Part shown: positions 17,381 through 36,122 of the stretch, in pieces
Layout of the letters: each line of letters starts with the position of its first letter
Numbering within the stretch: the first letter of the stretch is position 1
NCBI GenBank assembly: GCA_044869275.1
Contig: JBIOXB010000154.1
Span: forward strand, 1 to 45,052
DNA length: 45,052 nucleotides
Reading direction: 5' to 3'
Origin: a bacterium
GTDB lineage: Bacteria > Zhuqueibacterota > Zhuqueibacteria > Zhuqueibacterales > Zhuqueibacteraceae
Notes under the pieces: generated by a model
Seen by the model: only the letters and a program-made list of their open reading frames with translations
Told to the model about the DNA's origin: nothing
Database searches by the model: none
Made by a program: the position numbers and the translations under genes

Positions 17381-17446
17381 AGTTGGTTCAAGTTTCGTGT
17401 TATTCTCCCTGCTTCACAACGATCACCGCAAATTTTGGATTAGTTG

Positions 17447-18713: not shown

Positions 18714-20570
18714 ATGGCACGTTATGGAGAGAAAGAGCTCGGGGCGAAAGAGCTGACGAGCATTCTTGAAGCAACTGCACAGTATTGGCGAGACTGGAAT
18801 CCGAAAGCATTCGTTGGGTCGCTGGAAAAATATATCACAACCCTGCTCCCTCTTGAGCTTGAAGCAGTGCGCAAAATTGAAGCGGCTCGCAAGGAGGAGG
18901 GCAAGCGCCTGCCAGATGATTCTGAAAAAGCAGACACGTTGGTGCTGCTGGTTGGCTTCTCATTCGAGCCATTGTTGCAGTCCGTGTGCGCTTACAAACC
19001 GAAAAAGGTTTTACTGGTGCTGAATGAAAACTACTCGGATACTGTTGATGGCCAGATGTTCGGTGATTGGCTTACAAAATCGATCAGAAAATTGCCTGCC
19101 GATCTGTTGCCGGAGCAGCCGGAGGAGATCGGAGCGCTGGAGATAAATGAAGCGACAGGAGAAGAACAGTTTATCACTCAACCGGCGCAGCCCGAAAAAG
19201 TCTTTCAATTCTTGATTGACCAGTTGCTGCGCAAACCCGGCAATGACGCCCCGCAAAACGGCAGAATCGCTATCGACATTACCGGCGCTAAGAAGAGCAT
19301 GGTGACCGGCGCATATCTCTTTGGCGCGCTCACCAACTGCACGATTTCCTACGTTGATTTCGACGCGTACGAGCCGGAGCGTTTTCGCGCCTATGGTTAC
19401 TCTTGCAGAATTGGCAAAATCGGTAACCCCTATCATTCCTTTCGCATTTCCAATTGGCATCGAGTGCAAGAACGGTATAATCACTATGCGCTCGGGGAGG
19501 CCGCAAAGTTGCTCGGTGAAATTATTTCAGATTTTAAGAAAACAAAATTGTTTGAACGGGAAGATAAAAAAGACGAGATAAACGAGCTGCTCAAGCTCAG
19601 GCAACTGCAAAGAGTCATCGAGTTCTATTCCAGTTGGGATGCTGGCGATATTCCCAATGCTTATGAGCAATGGGTTTCTGAAATCAAAAAGATGGGAGTC
19701 GAAGCGCCGAAGGTTATTCAGGTGCTTGGGCCGGAGTGGGAAAAAGCCAAGAAGTCGGCATCTTCCTCACTGGCAGCCGGTGACTTTGCTGAAGCGCATT
19801 GGGCTATGGACAAATGGGCGACTCTGCTTGGAACCAATCATTGGCAGGCCATGCTGACTTATGCGCAGGATGAACTCGCGAAAATCCAACGCATCTTTAA
19901 GTTGCAAGGCGACGCACGCGCGGCCTTCATTCGGGCTGCCAATCTGCACGAATATACATTGAAAGTTAGACTGCTTATTCTAGAAAGCATTGCGGACGGC
20001 TTTAACGTAACAACCGGGGACAAGAGTGATCTCTTCGGGGTTGCCTTTTTCTTAGCAAGCCAAGCGATTCTCTACGCTGTGAATCCAAGGAATCCCAAAC
20101 CGCTTGCAAAATTTAATGAAAAAAGTAGGGTCAAAATTGAGGCTGCCCGAGGTCTTGAGAGCCTAAATCTCAGGATGTTTCCAGGATGGGAAGAGGTGCT
20201 TTTCGTCAAGAGAAAAAATGAGCGAGCAGAAGAGGTCAGGTTGGTAGATCAGTTCCGCGAAGTTCGCAACAGCGCCGTTCACAGTTTGTCCGTCATCTCG
20301 GAGAAAGATGCCAAAAGTGCCGTTGAATTTATCGAGAAGGACTGGGATAATTTGCTGGACTCATGGGCGAAATTGCTCATCGCAAAACCTTCGGACAAGG
20401 TTAATATTGATCAATTTGAAAAGGCGGAAGCGCTTAGGAAAAAAGTCAGAGGCGATACGCGATTCGGACTTCCATTATGGAGAGAGTTGTTGAGCAAGAA
20501 CCTGTGCAACGTGGACTTTCTGCCGATTTTCGATGACACAGAAAAACCAATACAGGAGCAAACATCATGA
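18714..20570 (+). CDS. CARF-HEPN ribonuclease effector (Csm6/Csx1-like)
   Basis: CARF motifs LVLLVGFSFEPLLQSV and IDITGAKKSMVTGAY...YVDF; HEPN RxxxxH in EVRNSAVHS; 4-nt overlap with cas10. Confidence 0.8.
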   Translation: MARYGEKELGAKELTSILEATAQYWRDWNPKAFVGSLEKYITTLLPLELEAVRKIEAARKEEGKRLPDDSEKADTLVLLVGFSFEPLLQSVCAYKPKKVLLVLNENYSDTVDGQMFGDWLTKSIRKLPADLLPEQPEEIGALEINEATGEEQFITQPAQPEKVFQFLIDQLLRKPGNDAPQNGRIAIDITGAKKSMVTGAYLFGALTNCTISYVDFDAYEPERFRAYGYSCRIGKIGNPYHSFRISNWHRVQERYNHYALGEAAKLLGEIISDFKKTKLFEREDKKDEINELLKLRQLQRVIEFYSSWDAGDIPNAYEQWVSEIKKMGVEAPKVIQVLGPEWEKAKKSASSSLAAGDFAEAHWAMDKWATLLGTNHWQAMLTYAQDELAKIQRIFKLQGDARAAFIRAANLHEYTLKVRLLILESIADGFNVTTGDKSDLFGVAFFLASQAILYAVNPRNPKPLAKFNEKSRVKIEAARGLESLNLRMFPGWEEVLFVKRKNERAEEVRLVDQFREVRNSAVHSLSVISEKDAKSAVEFIEKDWDNLLDSWAKLLIAKPSDKVNIDQFEKAEALRKKVRGDTRFGLPLWRELLSKNLCNVDFLPIFDDTEKPIQEQTS

Positions 20571-22318
20571 CTCGCTATCTTGTCGCGGCGGAAGCCGATA
20601 AAATTCAGGATTTCATTTTTCGCTCGGCGCGTTTACAGGAAGTGGTTGGTGGCAGCAATCTGCTCACACGATTTTGCCAGGACGGCATTGAGGCTTTGTT
20701 TGCCGCAAAAGCATCTTTTTACGGGGTGGCAGGAGTAAACTGGGAACTCGTCGTCAGTGATGGCGGCAATTTTCGGATTTGGTTCGATGAGCCGGAAAAG
20801 GCTGAGGCTTTCCAATACGACCTCACCGAGTTTTATCGCCGCGTGGTGGACAGCACGCTAACCGTCGCGGCCAAGCCGGAGGAATATGACGATGAGGTGG
20901 TAAAGGAAAAATTTGGTGAGGCCAATGATAAGGTCACCGATGCGCTCAAAAAAGCGAAGTCTTCGTCCCACGACGCTCGCGTTGTTTCGCACATTCCGCA
21001 AATGGCCTTCTGCGCTTCTTGCGGTTTGGCTATCGCCATAAGGCACGAGGCATACTATGAAGAAGAACGGGGAAAATATTTGTGTGACGCTTGTATCAAA
21101 AAGCGTGATGAGCGGCTGGAGTATTTCGTGGGGCCCGAAGAGTATGACCCGGATAAAAAGGAATTCTTTATCAACCAGTTTCGAGATAAGATACGCACGC
21201 AACACTCCGATTTGGCAGAAGTAAAGCTCTGGGTGCCGGCTGATGCCGTCGATGCCATCGGCGAGTTCGATTCGCGGCGATACGTTGCCTATCTCATTGC
21301 CGATGGCAACAGCATGGGAGAATTCTTTCACAAATGCCGAACGGACGACGACCTCAGAATGCTTTCTAAGCAATTGCCAGAAGTCGTGCAAGAGGCGCTC
21401 GCCCACCCAATGGGCTTGCTCAAACAATGCACGAACGAAATTGCGGGCAACAACAGAGAGATCAAAATTAAACGCAAGGGAAAACTCGCTCCCGATAAGT
21501 TGCCGCTCAAAGATGTTCTTCCAGTCGTGCCGCTCATCCTTGGCGGCGATGACATTTTTGCGCTTCTGCCCGCGCCTTATGCGGTGGATTTTACGCGATT
21601 GTTCATAGAAGAATACCAAAAGCAGATGGCCGTTGTGCTGCAGGGTTTGAACATCTCAGACAAGCCGACTCTCTCTGCCGTCGTGGTGATTTGCAAGAGC
21701 AATTATCCCTACAAGCTCGCGCACCATCACGGTCACGAGCTGCTCAAGCGCGCAAAGAAAATGGCAAAGCTTCATGATGAACAGAAACGCTCGGTTATCG
21801 ACGTCGACGTGATTTTGAGCAGTGAAAGGCGAAACGCGAATGATGCCAGTGGCGAGGCAAAGCAGCTTTATCATTCGAGCCTGCGGCCGTTTTGGGCAGA
21901 TGGCGCCAGTACTGATTCCGGCATTTTCATCAAGCAGCTTATCGAAACACGCTGGCTCTTGAATGATCTCCCGCACAAACGCCTGGCGCAGTTGCGCCGG
22001 TTGTATTCTCGAGAAAAATTACCCACAAGCGACGACCAATCCCTCGCGCATTGGAACAAAAGCTTGGAGCGCTTGCTTCAGCGCATAGCTCGCATGGATT
22101 ATGACGATGCAACGCAACCCGAAAGCAGCGGCCTAGCCGGAAAGGTCAAAAAAGCGCTCATCGAGCTTGGCGATGGCGAGGCGAACGGCAAAAACGGGCA
22201 TTGGAAGAAAACATCAAAGCGCAGCACCGAACCCCATGACGCCCATGCCCTGCCAGATTTGCTGAGGATGTGGGATTATTGTTACGCACTCGATAGGCCC
22301 TTTGAAAAATATCAGTGA
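20567..22318 (+). CDS. cas10: Cas10, type III-D (no HD nuclease domain; Palm/cyclase GGDD intact)
   Basis: DKIQDFIFRS.RL.EVVGGS.LL; Zn finger CASC...CDAC; ADGNSMG; ILGGDDIF; 583 aa without an N-terminal HD domain. Confidence 0.92.
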   Translation: MTRYLVAAEADKIQDFIFRSARLQEVVGGSNLLTRFCQDGIEALFAAKASFYGVAGVNWELVVSDGGNFRIWFDEPEKAEAFQYDLTEFYRRVVDSTLTVAAKPEEYDDEVVKEKFGEANDKVTDALKKAKSSSHDARVVSHIPQMAFCASCGLAIAIRHEAYYEEERGKYLCDACIKKRDERLEYFVGPEEYDPDKKEFFINQFRDKIRTQHSDLAEVKLWVPADAVDAIGEFDSRRYVAYLIADGNSMGEFFHKCRTDDDLRMLSKQLPEVVQEALAHPMGLLKQCTNEIAGNNREIKIKRKGKLAPDKLPLKDVLPVVPLILGGDDIFALLPAPYAVDFTRLFIEEYQKQMAVVLQGLNISDKPTLSAVVVICKSNYPYKLAHHHGHELLKRAKKMAKLHDEQKRSVIDVDVILSSERRNANDASGEAKQLYHSSLRPFWADGASTDSGIFIKQLIETRWLLNDLPHKRLAQLRRLYSREKLPTSDDQSLAHWNKSLERLLQRIARMDYDDATQPESSGLAGKVKKALIELGDGEANGKNGHWKKTSKRSTEPHDAHALPDLLRMWDYCYALDRPFEKYQ

Positions 22319-24783
22319 GGGAAAGAATGAACTTCTCATTAAAATTTCAACTCGAGTTGTCCTCGGATTATCACCTGAGCTCCGGCCATCGCAGCGAAGA
22401 GGTGGATTCGGCCTTGTTTCGTGATGCTGACGGTTTGCCCGCTCTCCGAGGAACGACCGTCGCTGCGCTCTTGCGCGACGGCATGCGCCGGCTGATTCTC
22501 ACCGGCGCGCTCAAGAACGTCACGTGCAATTGTCAAGCTTCCGGATTACCTGAGAAAATAGAAGGCAAAGAGCCGCCGGAATACTGCGGCCAATTTGAGA
22601 AATTGCTTGAAACCAAGTTCTGTCCGGTGTGCAAAATTTTTGGCTCGCCCAAATCTTTCAAAGCGTGGTCGGTTTCCTCGGCGCGGCCTTCAGGTTTGAA
22701 TGCGCCTGACACGGGGCAGGGTGTTATGGCAGAATGGGGAGCGCAAGAGGTGATGCGCGTGCGCATTGACCCTCGCACCCGTCGAGCTGAAGCGCGCAAG
22801 TTGTTCAGCCAGGAAGAAGGCGATAGCCGGTTGATTTTTGAATTCACCGTCACCAGCGCTACGCAAAATGAACATGAGAACGCGCAGGCTGCTTTGATCG
22901 TGGCTGCAGCGCGCATGGTGCGCAATTTCGGCGGCGCGCGCCGGCGCGGACGCGGCGAATGTCTTTTCACCCTCATTGAAGCGAAAGGCAAACCCGCAAA
23001 CAACGACGCCTGGCTCGATGATTTCCAATCCATTTGGATTGAGGGAAAGCCGACAACGAACGATGAAGATGAGGAGAAGTCGAACATCGTTAAACCGCAT
23101 CGTCAAGCGGCTTCGGGAACGGCATTGCGCTTGCGCTTGATCGTGCGCGCTGATGAGCCTATTCTCGTAGCCCGGCGTGCCGAATCCGGCAACGAGTTTG
23201 AAGGTTTGCGTTCCATTCCAGGAACCGTGGTTCGCGGCGCTTTTGCTCAAAAGGCCGCGGCAAAATGGGGCGGCTTCGATGACGACCTTCGCACTCTGTT
23301 TTGGGAATTGTTCTTTTCAGGTAAGCTATGCTTCACTCCGCTTTATCCCGCCCTTCAAGACGGCACCAATATCCGTCCGGCATTTCCGGCGCCGCGAGAT
23401 TTTCACACCTGCAAATTGCATTGCGGCCTCGATGAAACCGACGCCGACGTGATCTGGCATTTGCGCAGAGGCTCATCACTGAGCGAGGCCGAATGTTTGC
23501 GGTGCGGTGAAGCTCTTGAGCCTATGGAGGAGTTTCTCTATATCTCAAAAACCGGCGAATTGAAAAACATGCGTATCCGCAACGGTTTGGAAATGCACAA
23601 CACCATCAATCCCAATACCGAGCGAGTGGAGGAGACGAACCTGTTTGCCTACCAGCCGCTGGAAAGCGGGCAATACTTCATTGGTGAGATTGTTTGCGAC
23701 GATGAAAACCTCTGGTCTCTGCTCAAAGATTTTGCCGGTTTGCTGGAGTTGGACAAAGCTTTTTCGCTTAGTTTGGGGAAAGCTTCGCGCCGCGGTTATG
23801 GCCGTGCAACCGCAGTGCTTGTAAAGCCCAAAAGCGCAGACAGCCCGCCATTATGGATCGGCCGGCCACTCGTAACGCGTGTATCCAGCGCAAATGACAA
23901 CGAAACGCTCGTGCTCACTTTGTTGAGCGACGCCATCATCCCCGATTGTTGGGGAAGATTTTATACGGGGTTCGAGGAGGCGTCGCTCAGAAAAGAATTG
24001 GGCATAGAAGTGACCATCGTCGAACAATTCGTGGCGGCGCGCGAGGTTGATTCCTTCAATGCCCATCTCGGTTTGCCGCGCTGGCGCGATGTTGCCATTG
24101 CCGCCGGGTCTTCCTGCAAAATTCAAATACGCTCACGGGAAATCGAAAAGCTCAAAGCTCTTTGGGCGCAACAGACTGGGAATAACGAAGCCTCGCCGGA
24201 CGCCGCGCTGCACGCTCTGCACTGGCGTTTGAACAAACTCGAAGTTGAAGGTGTTGGCGTGCGCCGCAATGAAGGCTTCGGCGGGATCGCATTCAATCAC
24301 CCGTTGTATGAAAATGCCGCGATATTAAAGGATTGGTGGTTCCCTTTGCCGCAAGCATTGCAACTGCGAGATGACGCACAAAAGACCGGCTTTTCCTTTG
24401 AGCCAAGATTTCGAAAAGACTGGAATGAGATTCTCGATGAATTAAACCTCGAAGCGTGCCACGGCTCGAAGTTTGGTGCAGTGGCGCGTCTCTTTCGCGC
24501 CGAGAAGTACACTGGAATCGCAGTGCTGCAAGAGCGGCTCACCAAGTTGGGCGAGCGTGATAATCTCGACGGTGGCTTGCCGAAGAACGAGAGCAATTGG
24601 TTCAAAAAGAAGGGCGGCAAAGGCGTTGAGTTGATTGACACCGCTTTGAATCGGCTCGCAAGCCACATCGCAATGGTCACCGGCTCGCAAGAAATAGATA
24701 AACGCCTGTCGGCAATCGGCATCGAGTTGCTTGCCGAGCGCATCGCTGAGGAAGCGCTTAAAGATCAAGGAGAAAAACGATGA
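22315..24783 (+). CDS. Cas7-Cas5(Csx10)-Cas11 fusion RAMP of type III-Dv-like effector
   Basis: N-terminal Cas7 (SDYHLSSG...VDSALFRD.DGLP, Cys cluster, FGG.RRRGRG); central Cas5/Csx10 (IPGTVVRGAFA, LGKASRRGYG, GVGVRRNEGFG); helical C-terminal tail consistent with Cas11 (inferred from order and size); alternative ATG at 22327. Confidence 0.8.
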   Translation: MRERMNFSLKFQLELSSDYHLSSGHRSEEVDSALFRDADGLPALRGTTVAALLRDGMRRLILTGALKNVTCNCQASGLPEKIEGKEPPEYCGQFEKLLETKFCPVCKIFGSPKSFKAWSVSSARPSGLNAPDTGQGVMAEWGAQEVMRVRIDPRTRRAEARKLFSQEEGDSRLIFEFTVTSATQNEHENAQAALIVAAARMVRNFGGARRRGRGECLFTLIEAKGKPANNDAWLDDFQSIWIEGKPTTNDEDEEKSNIVKPHRQAASGTALRLRLIVRADEPILVARRAESGNEFEGLRSIPGTVVRGAFAQKAAAKWGGFDDDLRTLFWELFFSGKLCFTPLYPALQDGTNIRPAFPAPRDFHTCKLHCGLDETDADVIWHLRRGSSLSEAECLRCGEALEPMEEFLYISKTGELKNMRIRNGLEMHNTINPNTERVEETNLFAYQPLESGQYFIGEIVCDDENLWSLLKDFAGLLELDKAFSLSLGKASRRGYGRATAVLVKPKSADSPPLWIGRPLVTRVSSANDNETLVLTLLSDAIIPDCWGRFYTGFEEASLRKELGIEVTIVEQFVAAREVDSFNAHLGLPRWRDVAIAAGSSCKIQIRSREIEKLKALWAQQTGNNEASPDAALHALHWRLNKLEVEGVGVRRNEGFGGIAFNHPLYENAAILKDWWFPLPQALQLRDDAQKTGFSFEPRFRKDWNEILDELNLEACHGSKFGAVARLFRAEKYTGIAVLQERLTKLGERDNLDGGLPKNESNWFKKKGGKGVELIDTALNRLASHIAMVTGSQEIDKRLSAIGIELLAERIAEEALKDQGEKR

Positions 24784-26648
24784 AGCAATATATCGCCATC
24801 ACTGGTCAAATCGAATTTACCACGGCTTTGCACATTGGCAGCGGAAAAGGCGGAGAGACTACCGATGCGCCGATGCGCCACGACGCGCAGGGACGAATCG
24901 TTCTGCCCGGCACGGCCCTCGCGGGCGCGCTGCGCAGTACTGCAACAAGGCTCGCACCGAGAATGAATCTCGATATTCAAAACCCATTCTGTGTAGCGCT
25001 CGATAACGGCAAAAAGGAAATCGAACCCTGCGCGTGCCCGGTTTGCCATTTGTTCGGCGATCTTCATCCCGGCACGGAAGAAAACGTGCAAAGCGCAAAG
25101 ACACACGCTTCTCGTTTGTGGATTTACGACGCGACTTTGGCTAAAGACCAAGCGTGCGCGCTCGTGCGCGATGGCGTGGGCATCGACCGCGAAAGCGGCG
25201 CTTCCGCCAACGCTGGCGCTGCCAAATTTGATCTCGAAGTTTTGCCCGTAGGAGCAAGTTTCGATCTGCGCATAGAGGTGCAAAAATCCTCTGAGCAAGA
25301 TATCATGTTGCTGGCAGCGGCTTTGGCTGAATGGCAGTCCGGACGCGTGCGGCTCGGCGGCAGAACAGCGCGAGGGCTCGGCGTTTTCATTTTGAAAGGA
25401 CTGCAATGCAGCACGATTGATCTGCAAGATCATCTCATCAAGTTTCTCAAATCCAAGAAGCCGTGGGAAGCAGGTGCGGCAGATGCAAAATGGTTGGAGA
25501 CCAATTTGAAGAATGTAGAAACTCAGGCGATCCCACAACACCAGATTAAGTCTGAGGGCAAACAAAGCGTGATCGACTCCGTTGCCCAAAGCTGGGTCAC
25601 GGTCAATTTCGACCTGCAATTCCAAGGCCCGTTTCTCATGCACGACGCCACGTTGGCAGGTTTGATTGGTTATGACCATGCGCCCTTATTAGAAAAATTG
25701 CCGCCACCAAACCGCGATGACAAATGGCGGGCGCAACCCGTGCTATCCGGCGCAGGCTTGCGCGGCGTGTTGCGCTCTCATGCCGAGCGCATTGCGCGCA
25801 CGCTGGCGACACATCTGGCTTGGGGCAAAGATAATCAGCAAGAGTATTTTCTCCATCATTGTCCGGCATGCAATCCCACGCAATCGAATTGGCAGAAAGC
25901 GCTCGCGAATTGTGATAGGCTGCTTGCAGACCACCCTGATTCGACGTTGACAACGCATCAAGAAGCAACCGATAAACACCTCTGCCTCGCCTGTTGGCTG
26001 TTTGGCAGCACACGCCGCGGCAGCCGTTTCGCGATTCACGATGCGCGCATGATTCAAGATAATCCCCCAAAGCGATTGCCTTACAAACCGCAGGATTTCC
26101 TTGCCATCGACCGCTTCACCGGCGGTGGCCTCGACGGCGCGAAGTTCGATGCACTCGGTCTATTCGCGCCGCGCTTCCGCGTCTGCCTGCATCTCGAAAA
26201 TCCCGCGGACTGGGAATTGGGCTGGCTCACGCTCGTGCTACGCGATTTGCGCGATGAGCTGGTGACTTTCGGCTTCGGCGCGGCAAAAGGCTATGGCTTG
26301 GCAAAGGCAGAAAACTTCGACGTACAGCTTGGCTTTATCACCGCGGAGGATATTCCGCTTGCGAGAAAAGACAAAGAGACTGATCAAGCACGACAAGCCA
26401 GAAAGGAAGCACTAGCCGCAACTGCGCCCAAAGACCGGCAGTCGTTATATGCCGTGTTGCCTTTTGAGGCATCGTCATTCACAGCGCACAAGGTGCTTTT
26501 GGAAGATTGGATAGCTGCTTTCAACAAACAGGTTGAAGATTTTGACCGCAGCAAACCCGAAATGAAACCGCCAGCGCCGGTGAGCGACACGTACTTTGGA
26601 CGCTTGCATGAGTTGTATCCGGTCAATCCGCTTGCGGAGAGCGCGTGA
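24780..26648 (+). CDS. Cas7-Cas7 double-RAMP fusion (Csm3-group)
   Basis: Two RAMP domains: LHIGSG...TDAP...LPGTALAGALR...LGGRTARGLG and LSGAGLRGVLR...AIDRFTGG....KFD...FG.GAAKGYG. Confidence 0.88.
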   Translation: MKQYIAITGQIEFTTALHIGSGKGGETTDAPMRHDAQGRIVLPGTALAGALRSTATRLAPRMNLDIQNPFCVALDNGKKEIEPCACPVCHLFGDLHPGTEENVQSAKTHASRLWIYDATLAKDQACALVRDGVGIDRESGASANAGAAKFDLEVLPVGASFDLRIEVQKSSEQDIMLLAAALAEWQSGRVRLGGRTARGLGVFILKGLQCSTIDLQDHLIKFLKSKKPWEAGAADAKWLETNLKNVETQAIPQHQIKSEGKQSVIDSVAQSWVTVNFDLQFQGPFLMHDATLAGLIGYDHAPLLEKLPPPNRDDKWRAQPVLSGAGLRGVLRSHAERIARTLATHLAWGKDNQQEYFLHHCPACNPTQSNWQKALANCDRLLADHPDSTLTTHQEATDKHLCLACWLFGSTRRGSRFAIHDARMIQDNPPKRLPYKPQDFLAIDRFTGGGLDGAKFDALGLFAPRFRVCLHLENPADWELGWLTLVLRDLRDELVTFGFGAAKGYGLAKAENFDVQLGFITAEDIPLARKDKETDQARQARKEALAATAPKDRQSLYAVLPFEASSFTAHKVLLEDWIAAFNKQVEDFDRSKPEMKPPAPVSDTYFGRLHELYPVNPLAESA

Positions 26649-26667: not shown

Positions 26668-26697
26668 CGTAGCGCAGGCGGGGACGCCTGCGCTACG
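26668..26697. repeat. GTAG-type REP-like hairpin within the cas operon
   Basis: Perfect 13-bp stem CGTAGCGCAGGCG-GGGA-CGCCTGCGCTACG. Confidence 0.7.
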
Positions 26698-26765
26698 TTT
26701 TCTCCGTAAGTGAGGCATTACTCATATTGCGTATTATCCCTTGAATTTCAAACCGAGGTTTAACC

Positions 26766-27527
26766 ATGGGTGATCAAACCAAAGCCATCGATTTCAAAGC
26801 GATTATCCAACAGATGGTCAAGGCTGAGAAAGATAAAGCCACGGAAGATAATATCGTCATCGTCGGTGGCGTGTTCGATTTGAGCGCATCAAAAGAATCG
26901 ATCTTTGCCGATGAAACACTTGACCCCGAGATCGAGCAATCGGTGAGTGACAAGCTCCGCAAGTTTGTCGAAACTTGGCAGCCGGAGAATTGCGGCATGA
27001 CGCGAGCGATCTTAGAGACGGTCGGTAGTATCGACATGGATTATACGAGTAAGGTCCTCACGACAGAGACCGCGTACAACGAGCTCATGCGCGCGCGTTT
27101 TTTCGGCGAGGGCGGTGATCTTTCGCTGCGCCGCGACTGCGATTGGTTATATTGGCATTTTATTGGTGAACGCAAAACCAAGACCCCAAACCTCAAAAAT
27201 CGTTGCAGCTATTGGGGTGAGCAAAAAAAACTGCCGGAGAAGGAACGGGTCACTGCATTGCGCCGCCAAAAAGGCGTTGATTCTTTGCTCTGGGGCGAGC
27301 GTATTGTGCCGAAGAATGGCGGGGTGTTCTGGCGCGAAGATCGCGTCGGGGCAAAAGATTTGTTCTATCCTGTTGATAATCTAGAAAACAAGACTGCGCA
27401 AAAGCAACGCATGAAAATCATCTATGATGTTTACTGGCACAACGGCCAGCCGGCGTTTGTGTGGTTGAAAGATTTGATAGAAGTGTTGCCGAAATCTGAG
27501 AACAGCGAGGACAATAACCATGCCTAA
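26766..27527 (+). CDS. csx19: Csx19 (type III-D subunit)
   Basis: RARFFG.GGDLSLRR, LLWGE, LFYPV, AFVWLKDL; canonical position between Cas7-Cas7 and Cas7-insertion. Confidence 0.7.
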   Translation: MGDQTKAIDFKAIIQQMVKAEKDKATEDNIVIVGGVFDLSASKESIFADETLDPEIEQSVSDKLRKFVETWQPENCGMTRAILETVGSIDMDYTSKVLTTETAYNELMRARFFGEGGDLSLRRDCDWLYWHFIGERKTKTPNLKNRCSYWGEQKKLPEKERVTALRRQKGVDSLLWGERIVPKNGGVFWREDRVGAKDLFYPVDNLENKTAQKQRMKIIYDVYWHNGQPAFVWLKDLIEVLPKSENSEDNNHA

Positions 27528-29928
27528 GGGTAAAATCATTGTTTGGAAAGAAGAAAAAGGCTACGGCTTCATTCAGCCTGAAGGCACGGAAGCGCGCGAA
27601 GATCAGTTGTTTTGTCATATCAGTGATGCGACCGAGGTTCCTCAAGATAGATTGCGTGCCGGAACAGCTGTGGAATATACTCTTGGCATTGGAAAGCAGG
27701 GTAAGCCAGCGGCCAAGAGCGTTCGCTTATTCGGCACGTCGGGCTCTGTAACAGCAATGGAAAACCCGAAAACTGAATCAAAAAAGAACCGGTCTGATGA
27801 GTTATCGAGTCCCTACAGTTTTCTGAACCCTTATAACTTCGTTCGTTTTCTTACCCCTGTTGACTCTGCAAAGGGGCTCGCTAAAGCAACTGGCACAATG
27901 GCAGAAAAACTCTTGTCTCTCGGCTTGAAAGACATGCCGGAACAAGAGATGCCAATGGCGGCAAAAAAACTACTTGGCAATTGCATACCTCCGCCACATG
28001 ACCGATATATTGGAATTACGGGGAGGATTGTTTGCTCATTGGAAGCAGCCACTCCATTGTTCGTATCAGACTCTGAAAACGTCGAACCACGCGAAGAGCA
28101 CAAAAGCTTTGAGTTTTTCAAGATGAACGGCGAATACGCCCTGCCAGGATCGAGTTTGCGCGGCATGGTAAGAAGCGTGTTTGAGGCAGCGACAAATTCC
28201 TGTATGTCAAAATTAAGCGCCGCCCGATTAAGTTACCATTTGCCTCCAGTGGATGCTTTGCAGCTCGTGCCGGCGCAAGTTGAACATAGAAACGGCAACT
28301 GGAATCTGCGGTTGCTAACGGGCACAACATCCCTAAATGTTGGGCGTCGACCAAACGGGCCTCAATATGCTGCTTGGGTTCCTCGCTACCTGAGTGCTAT
28401 GCTGCAAAGAAGCCGGAACATTCCAGGTTCTCCTCTCTATGGAACGCGAAAAGACGTTACGCTTGGTGGCAAGGGCCACAAGACGAAATGTTGGGCCCTT
28501 CTCAAGTTGATCAAACATCCTCGAAATAAATTCGATTTTTGGAATGTGGAACAGATTGCCGACACGCAACCACAACTTCGATCTCCACAATCAGGTGAAC
28601 TTCAGGCAGAGGGTTTCCTCTGTATCACGAACCAAAACATTGAGAACAAGCATGATGAGCGTTTCTTTTTCCAAGGTTCGGGCTTGCCGCGTGCAGCAAC
28701 TGTTTCATTAGAGGAACGAGTCATTGATGACTATTGCGTTCTGATTCGTGACTATCAACAACGCCATCGTGAGCACGTCGAAAGACGCCGCAATCATGGC
28801 AAAGATCCGGAGAAACCAGATGGCAAGGAGCCTGGCTTCAGCCGGTTTATTGTGCATGAACACGAAACAGAGTTAAGTGACGGCGACTTGGTTTACGTCA
28901 TGTTGAAAGACATGAATCAAGTTGAATTTATCGTACCAGTCTCGATTCCACGGGTGGCTTATAAAAGCCGTATCAAAGACCTGCTGCCCGATGAAAACCT
29001 CGCTACTTGCAACGACCAAGAAAACCTGTGTCTTTGTCCGGCCTGCCGTGTTTTTGGCTGGGTTTATCAAGCCGAAGACGGCGAGGTGATCGACTCAAAG
29101 AAACGGGTGGCTTATGCTGGACGCGTAAGATTTTCGCATGCTACCTTGCTGCAAGGCTCCGGGACCTTGCCAGCAACGCCATTGGCAATTTTATCCTCAC
29201 CAAAACCAACGACGATACGGTTCTATCTTAAATCCAAAGACGGAAACATTCCTGAAAAATGGACAGGTGAAAGTGTAAATCAAGGCTATGATGGTGACAA
29301 TTTTTTACGCGGCAGAAAATTTTATCGCCACCATCAGAAAGTGAGTGAAGGGTCCTATTATCGTGCCGGAGGGCGCTGCGATGACCAGAATCGTACGGTT
29401 CGAGACGCCCTTATGCCCGGTGCTCGTTTCACGTTTACTGTGTGCTTCGAGAATCTTGCCTCCCTTGAATTGGGCGCCTTACTTTGGGCGTTGGAAATGG
29501 ACAATAAATGCTTTCACCGGCTGGGTTATGCCAAACCGCTTGGTTTCGGAAGTGTGAAAGTCAAGATCGACGAACTCGCCGTGCTTTCACCTGAGATACG
29601 ATATTCATCTCTGGATAATTCCGGATGGAAGCCGGTTAGAAATTGGCAGACGGAGTATGTGGAACAGTTCCAGACCATGCTCGCGAGATACCATAAATCC
29701 AGCGATTTTGAGTCTTTGCCGAACATCCAAGATATACGTGCAGTCTTGGGAGAATCCACACGAGATTTGCCGATCCATTATCCGCGTACGGATCGGCTGC
29801 CCGATCCGGAAGGCAAGAACTTTGAATGGTTCATGGGAAACAATCGATATCTGGGATACGCCCTGGGCCCTGCTGCTGACGATAAAGGCTTACCACTGGT
29901 TGCTCGTGATGGGACTGAAATTCCATGA
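27520..29928 (+). CDS. Cas7-with-insertion RAMP (TIGR03986-like) with N-terminal cold-shock domain, paralog A
   Basis: CSD GKIIVWKEEKGYGFI...LFCHIS; FLNPYNFVR, PPPHDR, PGSSLRGMVRSVFEA, CPACRVFG, GRVRFS, LSSPKPTT.RFYL, RGRKFYRH, LG.AKPLGFGSV. Confidence 0.88.
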   Translation: MPKGKIIVWKEEKGYGFIQPEGTEAREDQLFCHISDATEVPQDRLRAGTAVEYTLGIGKQGKPAAKSVRLFGTSGSVTAMENPKTESKKNRSDELSSPYSFLNPYNFVRFLTPVDSAKGLAKATGTMAEKLLSLGLKDMPEQEMPMAAKKLLGNCIPPPHDRYIGITGRIVCSLEAATPLFVSDSENVEPREEHKSFEFFKMNGEYALPGSSLRGMVRSVFEAATNSCMSKLSAARLSYHLPPVDALQLVPAQVEHRNGNWNLRLLTGTTSLNVGRRPNGPQYAAWVPRYLSAMLQRSRNIPGSPLYGTRKDVTLGGKGHKTKCWALLKLIKHPRNKFDFWNVEQIADTQPQLRSPQSGELQAEGFLCITNQNIENKHDERFFFQGSGLPRAATVSLEERVIDDYCVLIRDYQQRHREHVERRRNHGKDPEKPDGKEPGFSRFIVHEHETELSDGDLVYVMLKDMNQVEFIVPVSIPRVAYKSRIKDLLPDENLATCNDQENLCLCPACRVFGWVYQAEDGEVIDSKKRVAYAGRVRFSHATLLQGSGTLPATPLAILSSPKPTTIRFYLKSKDGNIPEKWTGESVNQGYDGDNFLRGRKFYRHHQKVSEGSYYRAGGRCDDQNRTVRDALMPGARFTFTVCFENLASLELGALLWALEMDNKCFHRLGYAKPLGFGSVKVKIDELAVLSPEIRYSSLDNSGWKPVRNWQTEYVEQFQTMLARYHKSSDFESLPNIQDIRAVLGESTRDLPIHYPRTDRLPDPEGKNFEWFMGNNRYLGYALGPAADDKGLPLVARDGTEIP

Positions 29929-29971
29929 TTCCTGCTGACAAGACTGAAAAACGGAGACGCGGGACAGGTAT

Positions 29972-30934
29972 ATGGCAGCATTGGATGAACTTGTTGATTC
30001 CACGGAAATCATCGGGAAAATTGAACAACGCGCCAGAGCGTTGCTTCCCAATTTATTGACCGAGCAAGATAAAGCCGAACATCGTTGGCAGGATGCCGTG
30101 CGGGAGCGGCTTGAGGTCGAAGTCGAAGCGTCAGAACAAAAACGGCTGCTTGAAGAACAGAGTATTCCAACTCGAGATGTCACTTCGATTCTGATTGAAA
30201 GTGAACGAAGAATTGAATTTTACCAAGATTTGCTTCTGGGATATCAAGGCAAAGTACAGGCCTTAGAACGCAAATTTACGAAAACTGAGGAAACGGCATT
30301 CATCTGGGCGCGAGAGCTACGTCGCCGGTCAGTTATCGCATACTGCACGGCATTCGAAAATTTTCTGCGGGACTTTTTGATTGAGCAGATCGTTTTTCAA
30401 CCTGCAAGGTTGGAAAGACATTTACAGAAGAAATCGAGAATCTCGCTGAAGTTGGAAAATTCGATTAATGTCATCGAAATTGACGACTGCATCTCAGTGG
30501 AGTGCCAAGCCTTCCCAAATCTCAGAGATGATGGCCAAGTTCAAAGACTTTACCATTCAATCTTGGGAAAGAAACCGTTTGCCAGGTTTTATTGGCCCAA
30601 TCGGTGGTTCACAAGCAAAAATGAACTCGTAGATGGCTACACCGATGTTCAAATACTTTTTGCCTTGCGCCATGAATTTGTCCATCGAAAGGGTTTGGCA
30701 GGTCGTCAATACCAATTGCAAATGTCAGGCGACGAAAAAAGAAAAGGTATCTCTTATCAGAATCGTATTGATCCTGTATTAATTTCGTGGTATCCTAAAT
30801 CGGTGCCGCCCAACCCTGATGAGGTTTTAGATTCAAGGCCGATTTCAGTAGATTATCGAAACAAACTTGATGAGATGGCTAATTCGCTATTACAATACGC
30901 AAAATACATTCAGGAAGTATGTGCGATAAATTAA
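29972..30934 (+). CDS. Coiled-coil plus HEPN-like protein (putative RNase, no CARF/SAVED sensor)
   Basis: E/R/Q-rich helical N-terminal third; HEPN-like VIAYCTAFENFLRDFL and RxxxxH motif LRHEFVHRKG. Confidence 0.6.
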   Translation: MAALDELVDSTEIIGKIEQRARALLPNLLTEQDKAEHRWQDAVRERLEVEVEASEQKRLLEEQSIPTRDVTSILIESERRIEFYQDLLLGYQGKVQALERKFTKTEETAFIWARELRRRSVIAYCTAFENFLRDFLIEQIVFQPARLERHLQKKSRISLKLENSINVIEIDDCISVECQAFPNLRDDGQVQRLYHSILGKKPFARFYWPNRWFTSKNELVDGYTDVQILFALRHEFVHRKGLAGRQYQLQMSGDEKRKGISYQNRIDPVLISWYPKSVPPNPDEVLDSRPISVDYRNKLDEMANSLLQYAKYIQEVCAIN

Positions 30935-30949
30935 ATTCAGGAGCCACTC

Positions 30950-33451
30950 ATGCCCACCGGCAAAATCAAATTCATCAACCTCGAAAAAAAGTTCGGATTC
31001 ATTGCCACCGAAGATGGCGGTGAACTGCATTTCAAACTTCAGGTCGTGCGCAAGCCCACACGCTGGGAAGATTTGCAACAAGGAATCGAGGTTGAATTCG
31101 AGGTGACGCAAGGTGACAAAGGACCGACCGCTAGCTGGGTTGCTCGTGCAGGAGTCGAGGCAAAATCCACAAAGCCGTCTGCGCAGAAGCAAGTTCAAAC
31201 TGGCTCCACCGTCGCGCCGTCAACAAATAACCACCGCTTCCTCAACCCCTACAACTTCGTGCGTTATTTGCAGCCGCGTGCTTTGGAGCCGCAAGATACT
31301 CCTGAAGTGCAGCTTCTCGGCCATTGCCCGCCACCGCCGCACGACCGCTGGGTGGGATTGAGCGGCATCATTCATTGCAAAGCTGTTGCCGAGACACCTG
31401 TGTTTGTCGCAGACGCCGAGAACGTGACGCAGGACAAGGACGAACCAAAACACAAGCACTATCACTTCTTCAAATATAGCGGCGAGGAGGCCATCCCGGC
31501 CACCAGTTTACGCGGGCCAATTCGCAATGTATTTGAAGCGGCAACGAACTCCTGCTTCTCAAACCTGACAGACAAGCGCCTGAGCTATCATCTGGAGGCC
31601 ACTGATGCACCCAAATTGGTGCCGGCGCGTGTGGATTATGACGAACAGAACGACAGATGGCGGCTCCAGTTGTTCACCGGCACTACGCCGCTGCGTTCCG
31701 GGGAACAGGTTTCAGAACCGCAGTATGCTGCGTGGATTCATCGCTATTGGCCTCTTGAACCCAGCAATACGTTAGAGCCCGATCCCACGAAGGTTCCAAG
31801 ATATCCCATGAAGGATGATTTACGTGAGCGTACATTGGCATTTCGCAACAGCAGAGCCAAAGGCGCGGAAAGGGAAGGTGACGGGCTTAAGCACGGCAAA
31901 GAGTGCTTTGCGCTGCTGCAGAAGTCTGACCACCCTCATCCCAGAATTAAGTTCTGGGACGTAGTCGAAATCGGCAATGACGAGAACGCACTGAGAAAAA
32001 AGATTCGTGATCCTCGCTTGCAACGCGTTGAAAAGGGCTGGCTGTGCCTCAACAACCAGAACATCGAGTCCAAACACAGCGAACGCTTCTTCTTCCGCGC
32101 CAAAGACAACCACAACGGCCCGAGCGAAATCGAGTTACCAGATAAAGTCCGACAAGACTATGAGGCATTGATTCATGACTATCAGGAACGGCATGCCAAG
32201 GAAGTGGATGAACGTCGGGAAGAGCGCGGGCCGGGGCATGATCATGAGCCTTGGCCAGGAAAGAAAAAAATGGAAGCAGCCCCGAGCCGTTTCGTTTACC
32301 GGATTGAGGAGAAAACCCTGCAGGGCGGTGAGCTGGTCTATGTCCGCCTCACTGGTTCTGCTCAAGCGCCGGAGGTCAAGTTCATCGTGCCGGTCTCTGT
32401 GCCACGGGTGATGTATGAACATAGCATAGCACAACGGCTACCGCATGAACGATTGAAGCGTTGCACAAACCCCGAAGCCCTTTGTCCCGCCTGCCGCACT
32501 TTCGGCTGGGTACGCGGCGAGACCGGGCAAGAGGGCGCTTATGCCGGTCGTGTACGCTTTTCGCATGCAGTCGCGACAAAGCCAAATAAAGTGAAGAACG
32601 AAATTTTACTTTCAATTCTGTCTTCACCGAAACCCACAACCACTCGCTTCTATCTCGTTCACAAAAGTTGGCAAAGCAAGAACCGCAGTGCAAAGGAAGC
32701 GGGCTATGACAATCCTGACAACGTATTGCGCGGCCGCAAATTCTATCGCCATTTCGGCGCGAAGCTCGATTTAAAAGAATACACACGCGCAACCGATGCC
32801 GAACATAACGGCAAGGACGATCAAAACCGTACTCTGCACGGCACGCTCGACAAAGGTTCCGAATTCGCCTTCACCGTGCGCTTCGAAAATCTTGCGCCCG
32901 TCGAGCTTGGCGCTTTGCTGTGGTCATTGGAAATGGACACCCGTGGCATTCAACGATTAGGCCTTGCGAAACCACTGGGCTTTGGCAGTGTACGCATTCA
33001 GATCGATGATAGCCAGGGTGCCGGATTACAGTTGCTCGATTCAAAAGCTCACTATGCCGCAGATACGTGGTTGCTACCGCCATATCAGAGAGAACTGGCC
33101 GAAGGACGCCGACGATATTTGCGGGCATTCAAACGTGCAATGGTTGAACGGTTTGCATGGAATCGCGCTCAAAGTATTCATGAAGAAAATGACAGTGCTT
33201 GGGAGTCCGCGTTCGAAGCACTCGACAACATCGCTGACTTGCGCGCCTTGCTAAATGCTCCGCCGGCCGATCTCGCCATTCACTATCCTCGTTTGGATTC
33301 AAAACCCTTGCCGGATGGTGAAAATTTCAAATGGTTTATGGCGAACAACCGAGAAGCGGGACGCAAACAGGGACTCTTACTTGAGCTGGAAGTGCCTGTG
33401 GAAGAAGTGAAGAGTCGCAAAGGTCTGCAACTAAATCCTGCAAAATTCTAG
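30950..33451 (+). CDS. Cas7-with-insertion RAMP (TIGR03986-like) with N-terminal cold-shock domain, paralog B
   Basis: CSD GKIKFINLEKKFGFI...VEFEVTQGDKGPTA; same motif series as paralog A (FLNPYNFVR, PPPHDR, CPACRTFG, SPKPTTTRFYL, RGRKFYRH, KPLGFGSV). Confidence 0.88.
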   Translation: MPTGKIKFINLEKKFGFIATEDGGELHFKLQVVRKPTRWEDLQQGIEVEFEVTQGDKGPTASWVARAGVEAKSTKPSAQKQVQTGSTVAPSTNNHRFLNPYNFVRYLQPRALEPQDTPEVQLLGHCPPPPHDRWVGLSGIIHCKAVAETPVFVADAENVTQDKDEPKHKHYHFFKYSGEEAIPATSLRGPIRNVFEAATNSCFSNLTDKRLSYHLEATDAPKLVPARVDYDEQNDRWRLQLFTGTTPLRSGEQVSEPQYAAWIHRYWPLEPSNTLEPDPTKVPRYPMKDDLRERTLAFRNSRAKGAEREGDGLKHGKECFALLQKSDHPHPRIKFWDVVEIGNDENALRKKIRDPRLQRVEKGWLCLNNQNIESKHSERFFFRAKDNHNGPSEIELPDKVRQDYEALIHDYQERHAKEVDERREERGPGHDHEPWPGKKKMEAAPSRFVYRIEEKTLQGGELVYVRLTGSAQAPEVKFIVPVSVPRVMYEHSIAQRLPHERLKRCTNPEALCPACRTFGWVRGETGQEGAYAGRVRFSHAVATKPNKVKNEILLSILSSPKPTTTRFYLVHKSWQSKNRSAKEAGYDNPDNVLRGRKFYRHFGAKLDLKEYTRATDAEHNGKDDQNRTLHGTLDKGSEFAFTVRFENLAPVELGALLWSLEMDTRGIQRLGLAKPLGFGSVRIQIDDSQGAGLQLLDSKAHYAADTWLLPPYQRELAEGRRRYLRAFKRAMVERFAWNRAQSIHEENDSAWESAFEALDNIADLRALLNAPPADLAIHYPRLDSKPLPDGENFKWFMANNREAGRKQGLLLELEVPVEEVKSRKGLQLNPAKF

Positions 33452-33480
33452 ACACTCAATGCATGACTAAGGAATTCTCC

Positions 33481-34083
33481 ATGAATCTCCTCCCCCTCGC
33501 CAAAGACGCCCTCGCCGCCCTGCAGCAAGCCGATCCGGCATTATCAGCATTGGTCAATGCCGGTACGATTCTGAACGCCGTCGGCAAAGCCGCCGTCACC
33601 GTCGTCAAGAAAGGCGCACAGCTCATTACTTATCTGATCACGCGGCGCGAGGATGAGCAACCAGCACCCGGCGAACCGCTCACCATCACCCGGCCACACG
33701 TCGCCATTCTCGTGGATATCAACCGCCGCATGCTGCAAGATGTCGCGCGCTATCTCGATGAGCAAAACCTCGACGCCGACATGCTCGTGGTCACCAATGA
33801 CCCGGCTTACGGCGACAAGGTGAAGTTTCTCGATCCCAATAAACCCGAGGAATGGTCCGAGTTGGTGCAGGAATTCACCGCAACGATGAATGCGATCAAA
33901 CATCAGCTTGGCGGCGCGCAGGTGCATATTTTTCTTTCCACGCCCCTGCCGCTGGCGTTCGGACTCGGCGCGGTGTGGGGGACGGTGGATTTGGCTATAG
34001 TCTATCATTATCAGGAAATCAAAACGGAAAACCGCTCAACTTACTATCCTGCGATGAAGATTTCGCGCAGGCTACGGCAGTGA
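33481..34083 (+). CDS. Small SAVED-domain protein (C-terminal lobe only) with N-terminal amphipathic/hydrophobic helices
   Basis: VAILVDI...VHIFLSTPLPLAFGLG...IVYHY...YYPAMKI matches the SAVED C-terminal lobe; likely start ATG 33481 after AAGGA. Confidence 0.7.
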   Translation: MNLLPLAKDALAALQQADPALSALVNAGTILNAVGKAAVTVVKKGAQLITYLITRREDEQPAPGEPLTITRPHVAILVDINRRMLQDVARYLDEQNLDADMLVVTNDPAYGDKVKFLDPNKPEEWSELVQEFTATMNAIKHQLGGAQVHIFLSTPLPLAFGLGAVWGTVDLAIVYHYQEIKTENRSTYYPAMKISRRLRQ

Positions 34084-35279: not shown

Positions 35280-36122
35280 ATGTCCAACCTCGCCTCCATC
35301 GTCTTCACCCTGACCGCCGCGCAAGCCACCTCCATCCCGCGCTACTCCGCGCGCGTGTTGCATGCCTCGTTTCTGCGCTGGCTGGAACGCGATCACGCGG
35401 AATTGGTGGGGCAGCTGCACGACGCCAATCATCCGCGGCCCTACACGCTTTCCAATCTGCAAGGTGAGCTAACACTGCAGGGCGAGCGCATGCGCATGGA
35501 TTCGGGCGCGAAGGTGTGGTTTCGGCTTACCACGCTGGAAGAATCATTTTTGCAGTGTGTGCTGGCTTCAGTCGAGAAACAAAACGCCGGCCCCCAACCC
35601 GATGACCGCCGCCTAGTGCCTGGCCCCGTATTTTGCGAACTCGACCAGCACCCCTGGGCTGCCGTGAGCTCCTTTGCTCAGCTCGCGCAGGCGATCGAGC
35701 GAGAAGGCCGCGCACAGCCTCTGCGGCCGCATGTTACCCTGCGCTTTCATTCACCTACCTGTTTCATCGAAAACAATCAAGCACTGCCTTTGCCCGTGCC
35801 GACTTATGTTTTTGGTTATTTGCTCAACAAGTGGCAAATGGCAAGTCCCTTTGTCCTGCCGTTGGAAGACGTGCAACACTTCGTGCAAAGCATACATGTA
35901 AGCGCTGCTAGAGTTGAAACTGGGCAAGTCGATCTGCAAAAATATCAGCGCACCGGCTTTTTCGGCGAAGCGCGTTTCGCGCTGCATCCGGCACTGCCGG
36001 AAAATTACAAACAAGCCCTGCATGTCTTGGCAAAATTTGCCTTCTTTAGCGGCGTGGGGTCGCATACCACCATGGGCATGGGGCAAGCGGTGCAAGTCGC
36101 AAACGGTAAAGAGCAAGCTTGA
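35280..36122 (+). CDS. cas6: Cas6 crRNA-processing endoribonuclease
   Basis: LHD...RPYTLS; LRFHSPTCF; LP.P..VFG.L..KW; G-rich loop AFFSGVGSHTTMGMG. Confidence 0.93.
   Translation: MSNLASIVFTLTAAQATSIPRYSARVLHASFLRWLERDHAELVGQLHDANHPRPYTLSNLQGELTLQGERMRMDSGAKVWFRLTTLEESFLQCVLASVEKQNAGPQPDDRRLVPGPVFCELDQHPWAAVSSFAQLAQAIEREGRAQPLRPHVTLRFHSPTCFIENNQALPLPVPTYVFGYLLNKWQMASPFVLPLEDVQHFVQSIHVSAARVETGQVDLQKYQRTGFFGEARFALHPALPENYKQALHVLAKFAFFSGVGSHTTMGMGQAVQVANGKEQA

What the first reader, a model, noticed from the sequence alone, without database searches (positions are those of the whole stretch)
27520..33451. Two diverged cold-shock-domain-Cas7-insertion paralogs in one type III-D operon
Seen: 802-aa and 833-aa paralogs share all RAMP motifs but differ widely in the insertion and C-terminal regions; both start with a cold-shock (OB) domain. 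Known: III-Dv complexes contain a single Cas7-insertion subunit, the relative of the type III-E gRAMP insertion region. Inference: interchangeable terminal subunits giving two effector variants (anti-CRISPR escape or different partners), with the CSD helping to melt structured target RNA.
Basis: partly seen in the sequence, partly recalled or inferred. Interest (0 to 1): 0.7.

Follow-up and report, generated by a model that had tools for sequence, protein, structure and literature searches.

The report
CRISPR operon with two swappable caps
An RNA-targeting CRISPR system carries two intact versions, from different lineages, of the subunit that caps its guide RNA, the extra one having arrived together with a probable RNA-cutting toxin gene; the same doubling recurs in other bacteria and suggests that this cap is an exchangeable part.

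Summary
Real. An intact type III-Dv operon encodes two full-length Cas7-insertion (TIGR03986) proteins, A (802 aa) and B (833 aa), 41% identical, each with an N-terminal cold-shock domain (CSD).

A and B are not a local duplication (AU test p=1e-7). B tracks the resident core. A belongs to a clade always followed by this HEPN family (3 of 3 genomes in the phylum), so an A+HEPN cassette most likely inserted in front of B.

Doubles are not unique: 4 of 26, 7 of 56 and 0 of 16 positive genomes in three scans. In relatives both copies are under purifying selection, and bodies, CSDs and cargo swap between cores only about 45% alike. The CSD is ordinary for the family (93 of 120 homologs) and often degenerate or absent.

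Best reading (0.55): an exchangeable cap slot yielding two alternative 1:1 complexes. Bolder reading (0.2): A regulates its HEPN partner directly. Expression, assembly of both and anti-CRISPR escape are untested. Eight literature searches found no description of the doubling.

The parts
17444..18604 (+). CARF-family ring nuclease (Cas_NE0113 type)
   Evidence: TIGR02584 136 bits over cut-off 80.65, PF09623
18714..20570 (+). CARF-HEPN (Csx1/Csm6-like) cOA effector
   Evidence: PADLOC CARF1--CARF_HEPN E 6.6e-96
20567..22318 (+). Cas10, 583 aa, GGDD motif intact, no HD-domain hit
   Evidence: PF22335, PADLOC Cas10 E 8e-62; GGDD aligns with Synechocystis Cas10
22315..24783 (+). Cas7-Cas5-Cas11 fusion, 822 aa; Asp matching Synechocystis D26 kept
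   Evidence: RAMPs plus Csx10/Cas5_IIId; 22% over 678 columns to the Synechocystis subunit. The Cas11 part is inferred from that alignment and gene order.
24780..26648 (+). Cas7-2x fusion, 622 aa; Asp matching Synechocystis D33 and D246 kept
   Evidence: two RAMP stretches; alignment
26668..26697 (+). 13-bp GC-rich hairpin with T tail between cas7-2x and csx19, single copy in the genome
   Evidence: function untested
26766..27527 (+). Csx19; its stop overlaps the start of copy A (8-nt overlap)
   Evidence: PADLOC Csx19 E 2e-24; TIGR03984 under its cut-off
27520..29928 (+). Copy A: CSD (1-70), flexible linker (74-94), Cas7 with insertion; GC3 0.47; incoming clade tied to the HEPN gene
   Evidence: model pLDDT 89.9; Foldseek 8s9t_E E 2.7e-51, TMt 0.81, and CspE 3i2z TMt 0.86; trees
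29972..30934 (+). 320-aa protein: N-terminal coiled-coil hairpin plus HEPN-like domain (E129, R233-H238); no CARF or SAVED hit; GC 0.43, GC3 0.42
   Evidence: PF18735 E 0.0077, under the cut-off, and 9 of 36 family members hit it; invariant E129 and H238, near-invariant R233; Atlas row 10 RiboL-PSP-HEPN, score 0.91; model pLDDT 94.8
30950..33451 (+). Copy B: CSD with altered RNP2, linker, Cas7 with insertion; GC3 0.56; probable resident copy
   Evidence: orthologs P0002-P0007 at 59-79%
33463..34083 (+). Stand-alone SAVED-domain protein
   Evidence: PF18145 E 5e-15
35280..36122 (+). Cas6
   Evidence: PF10040
39372..41957 (+). Reverse transcriptase, Cas1 and Cas2 (adaptation module)
43955..45052 (+). 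CRISPR array, 15 complete 37-nt repeats, spacers 34-38 nt, runs off the contig end; 7 more repeats on C203

Best explanation
The last gene of the III-Dv operon, the Cas7-insertion subunit, is an exchangeable cap. SHOWN IN PRINT for Synechocystis (PMC11026444): the complex holds one copy, which grips the crRNA 3' seed and gates target pairing, at a position proposed not to cleave. SHOWN HERE: both genes are whole, keep most seed-contacting residues, come from different clades, and A travels with a HEPN-like gene. INFERRED: B is the resident copy, and an A+HEPN cassette from another III-Dv lineage integrated between csx19 and B without replacing it. Both are translated from the operon and compete for the single cap site on a common Cas10/Cas7-5-11/Cas7-2x/Csx19 core. 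This gives two 1:1 complexes with the same cleavage and cOA chemistry but different exposed heads (insertion, CSD). The likely benefit is a hedge against inhibitors or poorly seeded targets, plus the toxin cargo. The CSD is a tethered OB-fold RNA-binding accessory that swaps independently of the body and is dispensable in many relatives.
For: (1) Different origins: A and B fall in separate clades with SH-aLRT 100 each, and holding them together is rejected, p-AU 1.15e-7. GC3 is 0.47 for A and 0.42 for the HEPN gene, against 0.56 for B and 0.59-0.60 for cas10, cas7-5-11, cas7-2x and csx19. (2) B is resident: the Cas7-2x ortholog P0214 (77%) and the B ortholog P0002 (78%) share a longest-contig length of 17,954. 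P0215/P0072 (21,608) and P0213/P0383 (23,390) pair close cores (74%, 80%) with a B-type CSD (92%, 82%) on a third body type. (3) The layout is conserved: the A ortholog P0122 (86%), HEPN ortholog P0332 (81%) and B ortholog P0377 (78%) all list 8,019. Points 2 and 3 are inferred from equal contig lengths; the contigs were not seen. (4) Recurrence on one contig within about 5 kb: 4 of 26 genomes over the cut-off among 167 of the own phylum (G000, G052, G140, and G062 with one copy cut by the contig end). 7 of 56 among 401 Anaerolineae-class genomes, one being the centre G167, chosen for having a double. (5) Swapping: L002/L007 and L005/L012 have Cas7-2x cores 48-50% alike but first copies 78-83% alike. 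L012 and L068 share a core (72-78%) but differ in first copy (48%) and HEPN family. Eight of the Chloroflexi second copies compared form one clade, and L071 uses that clade as its only copy. L068a and L002a are 80-100% alike in CSD and linker, then 18-59% in the body after the NPYNF-containing window. (6) dN/dS 0.055-0.22 in 7 of 7 unsaturated pairs of first or second copies in relatives. (7) Synechocystis I355, D616 and F767 are kept in both copies; I453 is I/V; one basic residue of the K396/R400 bridge is kept in each.
Against: No expression or complex data for this locus. Selection was measured in relatives, not on A and B themselves (the A vs L048 pair was saturated). B has Ile where Synechocystis F307 caps the crRNA end, as do its orthologs. 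A terminator-like hairpin lies upstream of csx19, so read-through into the distal genes may be partial. No tandem double in 16 positive genomes of 401 in the phylum of G168, and only 2 of 59 loci outside this lineage. The scans scored few candidates per genome, and kin are not independent. Nothing here tests anti-CRISPR escape.
Confidence: 0.55

Rival explanations
1. Copy A is a dedicated partner of the HEPN protein. The A-capped complex holds the sensor-less RNase inactive or recruits it, and releases or activates it on target binding or when the complex is attacked (a guard or toxin-antitoxin link that needs no cOA). B remains the ordinary cap.
For: All 3 hits of this HEPN family in 167 genomes lie directly after an A-clade gene. 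In Anaerolineae 10 of 12 hits of two related HEPN families follow a Cas7-insertion gene. The model was built from such genes, and the 2 new, weaker hits are stand-alone. Body clades follow HEPN families. A tail motif [DN][KR][YF]G precedes family F13 in 9 of 9 distinct loci over three clades and is absent from L064 and L067, 79-88% relatives of L069 that lack F13. In the other lineage 10 of 13 copies with a C-terminal CSD are followed by one AAA-ATPase family. L047 fuses Cas7-insertion to a PARIS AriA-like ATPase, followed by AriB.
Against: Linkage and recombination near the gene's 3' end explain the same patterns. The tail is ordered and confidently modelled as part of the body. A-type conservation of the tail (excess 0.16-0.18) is only slightly above other segments (0.05-0.14). 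First copies persist without the HEPN gene (L064, L067). The HEPN call itself is under the Pfam cut-off.
Confidence: 0.2
2. One copy is a passenger. A was carried in with a self-sufficient HEPN toxin in a cargo hot spot; only one subunit is used and the double is a transit state of allele replacement.
For: The position after the gene holds varied cargo (HEPN, AAA+PIN, TIR, SAVED). Singles of both kinds exist (L048 has A+HEPN only). One second copy ends after 199 aa near a contig end (L069).
Against: Three ORFs apparently stayed intact together over 14-22% protein divergence (inferred). Low dN/dS of both copies in Chloroflexi doubles. The second-copy clade is kept behind at least three different first-copy clades.
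Confidence: 0.17
3. Both subunits stack in one elongated complex on a longer crRNA.
For: Both are in one operon; spacers of 34-38 nt leave some length beyond a 37-nt mature crRNA.
Against: The Synechocystis complex has no repeated subunits, a fixed 37-nt crRNA, and its insertion domain caps the 3' end (PMC11026444 and preprint passages). Spacer lengths show no second class.
Confidence: 0.05
4. Recent local duplication, or a chimeric assembly of two strains' operons.
For: Metagenome-assembled genome; no laid contig bridges 29568-29588.
Against: 41% identity and AU rejection; even depth and no skipping joints; the same three orthologs on an apparent 8,019-nt contig; recurrence in other genomes.
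Confidence: 0.03

Closest known systems
Type III-Dv system of Synechocystis sp. PCC 6803 (PDB 8S9T; PMC11026444, passages read)
   Same: Gene order cas10, cas7-5-11, cas7-2x, csx19, cas7-insertion; catalytic aspartates and GGDD; fold of copy A; CARF-family ancillary genes nearby.
   Different: One cas7-insertion gene there, two here with a HEPN-like gene between. Its unresolved N-terminal 112 residues are not hit by a CSD profile (hhalign 3%) and link only weakly through degenerate CSDs (48%).
Type III-E Cas7-11/gRAMP and III-D2 Cas7x3 (Cas7.4 with INS domain)
   Same: Homologous insertion-bearing Cas7 (NF041225 E 7e-54; PDB hits). III-E also couples the complex physically to a neighbouring effector, Csx29 (PMC13294483, passages).
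   Different: There the domain is fused and cannot be swapped as a gene; here it is free-standing, doubled, and Cas10 and Csx19 are present.
Type III-B Cmr6 with a CSD (PDB 9ARW chain H, 'CSD domain-containing protein Cmr6')
   Same: A CSD fused to a terminal Cas7-family subunit; it matches residues 3-70 of A, E 1.2e-8.
   Different: III-B, no large insertion. I found no paper on it, so its function is unknown to me.
RiboL-PSP-type HEPN proteins; Csx1/Csm6 HEPN RNases
   Same: E...RxxxxH pattern in a helical domain.
   Different: No CARF or SAVED sensor; a long coiled-coil hairpin instead; no PADLOC match.

Membership tests
Type III-Dv CRISPR-Cas | cas10, cas7-cas5-cas11 fusion, cas7-2x, csx19, cas7-insertion in order | tested here: met
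   definition from PMC11026444
Type III-Dv CRISPR-Cas | Cas10 with intact GGDD; catalytic Asp in three Cas7 domains | tested here: met
   aligned to Synechocystis D26, D33, D246 and GGDD
Type III-Dv CRISPR-Cas | Complex with one copy of each subunit and a 37-nt crRNA | not testable with these tools
   needs native MS; the locus has two candidate genes for one slot
TIGR03986 Cas7-insertion | Score over the curated cut-off, whole length, both copies | tested here: met
   422.6 and 398 bits against 161.35
TIGR03986 Cas7-insertion | Seed-contact residues (Synechocystis F307, I355, K396/R400, I453, D616, F767) | tested here: inconclusive
   A keeps all but K396; B keeps I355, K396, D616, F767, has V for I453, Ile for F307 and Glu for R400
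Cold-shock domain (PF00313) | Score over gathering threshold and OB fold | tested here: met
   (the fold was modelled for A only)
Cold-shock domain (PF00313) | RNP1 and RNP2 aromatic RNA-binding surface (motifs recalled from CspA) | tested here: inconclusive
   A has KGYGFI and LFCH; B has KKFGFI but LHFK at RNP2; binding not tested
HEPN RNase (ORF 29972-30934) | Conserved E and RxxxxH in a helical domain | tested here: met
   E129, H238 invariant and R233 at 90% or more in 36 rows; helical model
HEPN RNase (ORF 29972-30934) | Family score over cut-off or structural match to a solved HEPN | tested here: inconclusive
   best PF18735 E 2.4e-5, 9 of 36 members; fold searches were filled by the coiled coil
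Recent in-paralog pair | A and B form one clade | tested here: not met
   p-AU 1.15e-7
Type III-E | Single Cas7-11 polypeptide, no Cas10 | tested here: not met
   separate genes and Cas10 present; NF041225 183 bits against 700

The most novel reading that the evidence does not exclude
Free-standing Cas7-insertion subunits are plug-in adaptors that physically couple a type III-D complex to a cognate, sensor-less toxin encoded right behind them (HEPN RNases in the III-Dv lineage, AAA-ATPase/nuclease pairs such as PARIS in the other). This would give a second-messenger-independent or guard output. Doubles let a cell run the plain cap and the toxin-coupled cap side by side.
Probability: 0.2. Interest if true: 0.85.

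Novelty: new variant of a known kind. Interest (0 to 1): 0.55.

Why it matters
III-Dv is described as a fixed one-of-each complex and as the step towards single-protein III-E effectors. A recurring second cap gene, and caps that move between cores under 50% alike, would make the seed-gating head a modular part: a natural library for testing what the insertion and the unresolved N-terminal domain do, and for engineering. If the adjacent HEPN or AriA-type proteins are wired to the cap, that is a new output route for type III immunity, testable with one co-expression series.

Tried and rejected
Complex prediction of A (97-802) with the HEPN protein (30-320): no verdict, score 0.00, no evidence either way; the CSD was left out by the size limit. 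No RNA holder was listed among sequencing runs, so nothing on expression. Fold searches of the HEPN model returned only coiled coils. The metagenome scan with B found one distant locus. The contigs of the close orthologs could not be read, so their co-location rests on equal contig lengths. A direct CSD match to the Synechocystis N-terminus failed. No spacer matches the own genome outside the arrays. Promoter-like sites were about at chance level, 19 against 14.0 +/- 4.2. A single crossover inside the CSD as the origin of the double is disfavoured, because B keeps the core-linked CSD type and A shares its CSD with its own orthologs. L111's downstream 320-aa ORF was tried as a HEPN relative; it lacks the motif and was dropped. 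Four look-ups of earlier findings were empty. Literature searches gave no listing or passage describing a doubled cas7-insertion gene or a CSD on it; most subscription papers are not covered, and I opened no supplements (those of PMC12669027, PMC6546367 and PMC10910872 could list such loci).
Full report
THE OBSERVATION. The window is a whole contig (G000:C154) of a 6.7-Mb metagenome-assembled genome; names printed for homologs suggest candidate division KSB1 (inference). On the + strand lie a ring nuclease, CARF-HEPN, Cas10, Cas7-5-11, Cas7-2x, Csx19, copy A (27520-29928), a 320-aa ORF, copy B (30950-33451), SAVED, a 208-aa ORF, Cas6, RT, Cas1, Cas2 and a CRISPR array. A and B both pass the TIGR03986 and CSD cut-offs and are 41% identical; no third copy exists in the genome. 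Divergence is spread over the whole body (39-43% in most segments, 53% in the conserved C-terminal Cas7 half, 28% in the CSD and at 691-760), not concentrated in the insertion. The model of A is confident (pLDDT 89.9), with a CSD, a disordered linker at 74-94 and the fold of Synechocystis 8S9T chain E. The core keeps GGDD and the three catalytic aspartates.

ASSEMBLY. Contigs of run X1, possibly the source, cover 18346-29588 and 29568-34385 without differences and at similar depth. X2, another sample of the same study, bridges csx19-A. No joint skips either gene. The one unbridged point lies inside A, where orthologs are 87-94% identical on both sides. Orthologs of A, the HEPN gene and B (86%, 81%, 78%) all list a longest contig of 8,019 nt, enough for the 5.9 kb they need; I did not see that contig.

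THE MISSED GENE. ORF 29972-30934 is a coiled-coil hairpin plus a helical domain with invariant E129 and H238 and near-invariant R233 in 36 rows (35 of the 41 hits were aligned with the query, short fragments left out). PF18735 is hit under its cut-off by 9 of 36 members, and the Atlas lists a RiboL-PSP-HEPN cluster at 0.91. Fold searches were uninformative. It has no CARF or SAVED hit. I call it a probable HEPN RNase. In 167 genomes of the phylum the family occurs 3 times, each directly after an A-clade gene.

ORIGIN. In a 44-row tree A groups with P0122, P0123, P0100, P0060, L048 and L018 (100*), and B with P0002, P0004, P0005 and P0007 (100*) inside another clade (66 rows by FastTree agree). 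A and the HEPN gene have low GC3 (0.47, 0.42) against 0.56-0.60 for B and the core. By shared contig lengths, a 77% Cas7-2x ortholog sits with a 78% B ortholog, and 74% and 80% orthologs sit with proteins bearing B's CSD (92%, 82%) on a third body type. So B and its CSD are resident and A+HEPN is the likely incomer. In same-family genomes the ring nuclease is 77-78% identical while the effector genes are 29-42%, so the whole module also turns over.

HOW COMMON. Tandem doubles on one contig: 4 of 26 genomes over the cut-off among 167 of the own phylum (one with a copy cut by the contig end); 7 of 56 among 401 of the class of G167, including that centre; 0 of 16 among 401 of the phylum of G168. 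These are lower bounds (fragmented contigs, few candidates scored per genome) and kin are not independent. In my pooled loci, which are biased because 12 were found with A and 1 with B, 11 of 36 III-Dv-lineage loci and 2 of 59 others have two copies. Three duplicate loci were dropped, and most short loci were replaced by longer cuts or left out as weak hits. Layouts are first copy-cargo-second copy, or the two adjacent. In 17 of 35 III-Dv-lineage loci the gene after the first copy is one of three HEPN-motif families.

EXCHANGE. Chloroflexi second copies form one clade, lack a CSD, follow at least three first-copy clades, and serve alone in L071. First copies 78-83% alike sit on cores 41-50% alike, and similar cores carry different first copies with different HEPN families. 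CSD and linker swap at the NPYNF region. dN/dS is 0.055-0.22 in 7 of 7 unsaturated pairs; the eighth, A against L048, was saturated.

THE CSD. It is ordinary: 93 of the 120 best homologs of B carry it by my profile (the query favours this). It occurs canonical, degenerate (hhalign 96.8%), at the C-terminus in the other lineage, or absent. A keeps RNP1 and RNP2; B has an altered RNP2 (motifs recalled). The unresolved 112-residue N-terminus of the Synechocystis subunit may be a further degenerate form, but the link is weak (48% via degenerate CSDs, 3% direct). A role in capturing or melting target RNA is plausible from general knowledge of cold-shock proteins and untested. The preprint's sentence on removing 104 residues is ambiguous.

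MECHANISM. In Synechocystis the complex has no repeated subunits, the insertion domain caps the 37-nt crRNA and presents the seed, and this position is proposed not to cleave (PMC11026444, passages). With one slot and two intact genes that keep most seed contacts, the simplest outcome is two alternative complexes (0.55, inferred). Rivals: A regulates its HEPN partner (0.2), one copy is a passenger (0.17), both in one particle (0.05), duplication or mis-assembly (0.03). For the coupled reading: strict adjacency, clade matching, a tail motif tied to one HEPN family in 9 of 9 loci, C-terminal CSDs followed by one ATPase family in 10 of 13, and a Cas7-insertion-AriA fusion before AriB. Against it: linkage explains all of these, and first copies persist without the HEPN gene.

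WHAT IS KNOWN. Seen as passages only: PMC11026444, PMC10168453, bioRxiv 2022.06.13.496011, PMC13294483, PMC12669027, PMC6546367, PMC10910872. 'Cold shock' or 'cold' had no occurrence in the six main texts where I searched it. Eight searches showed no description of the doubling; supplements and most subscription papers were not seen. A CSD on a terminal subunit has a precedent by name in PDB 9ARW chain H.

VERDICT. A real, recurrent and apparently undescribed variant of type III-D(v): a doubled, exchangeable cap gene with toxin-like cargo. Interest 0.55; the coupled-toxin case has probability 0.2 and interest 0.85.

Noticed in passing
L047:12753-17181 (G155:C62): A Cas7-insertion protein fused in one 1086-aa frame to a PARIS AriA-like ATPase (PADLOC E 8e-48), followed by AriB/DUF4435 (E 2e-40). 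One locus only; the assembly was not checked.
   Followed up: partly
L043, L045, L050, L079, L085, L097, L101, L110, L112, L123: In the III-D lineage with mostly unfused core genes the CSD is C-terminal, and 10 of 13 such genes are followed by one AAA-ATPase family (PDC-M55A/NsnB/HEC-03B-like) plus a PIN or unknown partner. Other members end in domains that look S1/OB-like by eye.
   Followed up: partly
window 26668-26697: Perfect 13-bp hairpin with a T tail between cas7-2x and csx19, inside the operon and unique in the genome; it may attenuate or stabilise the transcript.
   Followed up: no
window 33463-34083: SAVED domain without an effector domain; a 47% homolog also follows the second copy in L043.
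   Followed up: no
window 34269-34895: 208-aa ORF without a convincing family match; a 92% copy lies on contig C94, and 74-78% homologs follow III-D operons in same-family genomes.
   Followed up: no
window 17444-36122 against L048, L049, L046, L053: Ring nuclease (77-78%) and Cas6 (58-74%) are conserved in same-family genomes while the effector genes between them are 29-42% or belong to another III-D lineage: whole-module replacement.
   Followed up: partly
window 34090-35290, 40300-40540, 41490-41660, 42090-42800: Degenerate 7-nt tandem repeats in intergenic gaps around cas6, RT, cas1 and cas2, in both orientations; high depth and loose ends at 34.1-35.3 kb suggest copies elsewhere.
   Followed up: no
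window 8605-9137, 14318-14510, 15828-15979: A repeated element with inverted TTGCAACGAAAA-type ends, three copies, one around a GxxExxY gene.
   Followed up: no
window 36545-40292: Two unknown ORFs (306 and 339 aa) and a stand-alone RT precede cas1; homologs in the same order lie in L045.
   Followed up: no
L124:10605-10940: The unresolved N-terminal domain of the Synechocystis Cas7-insertion may be a degenerate OB/CSD; weak profile link only.
   Followed up: partly
window 9209-14312: PorV-like/TPR protein and a CHASE2-CHAT protein upstream, among proteins with T9SS-like C-terminal domains; no link to the CRISPR locus was examined.
   Followed up: no
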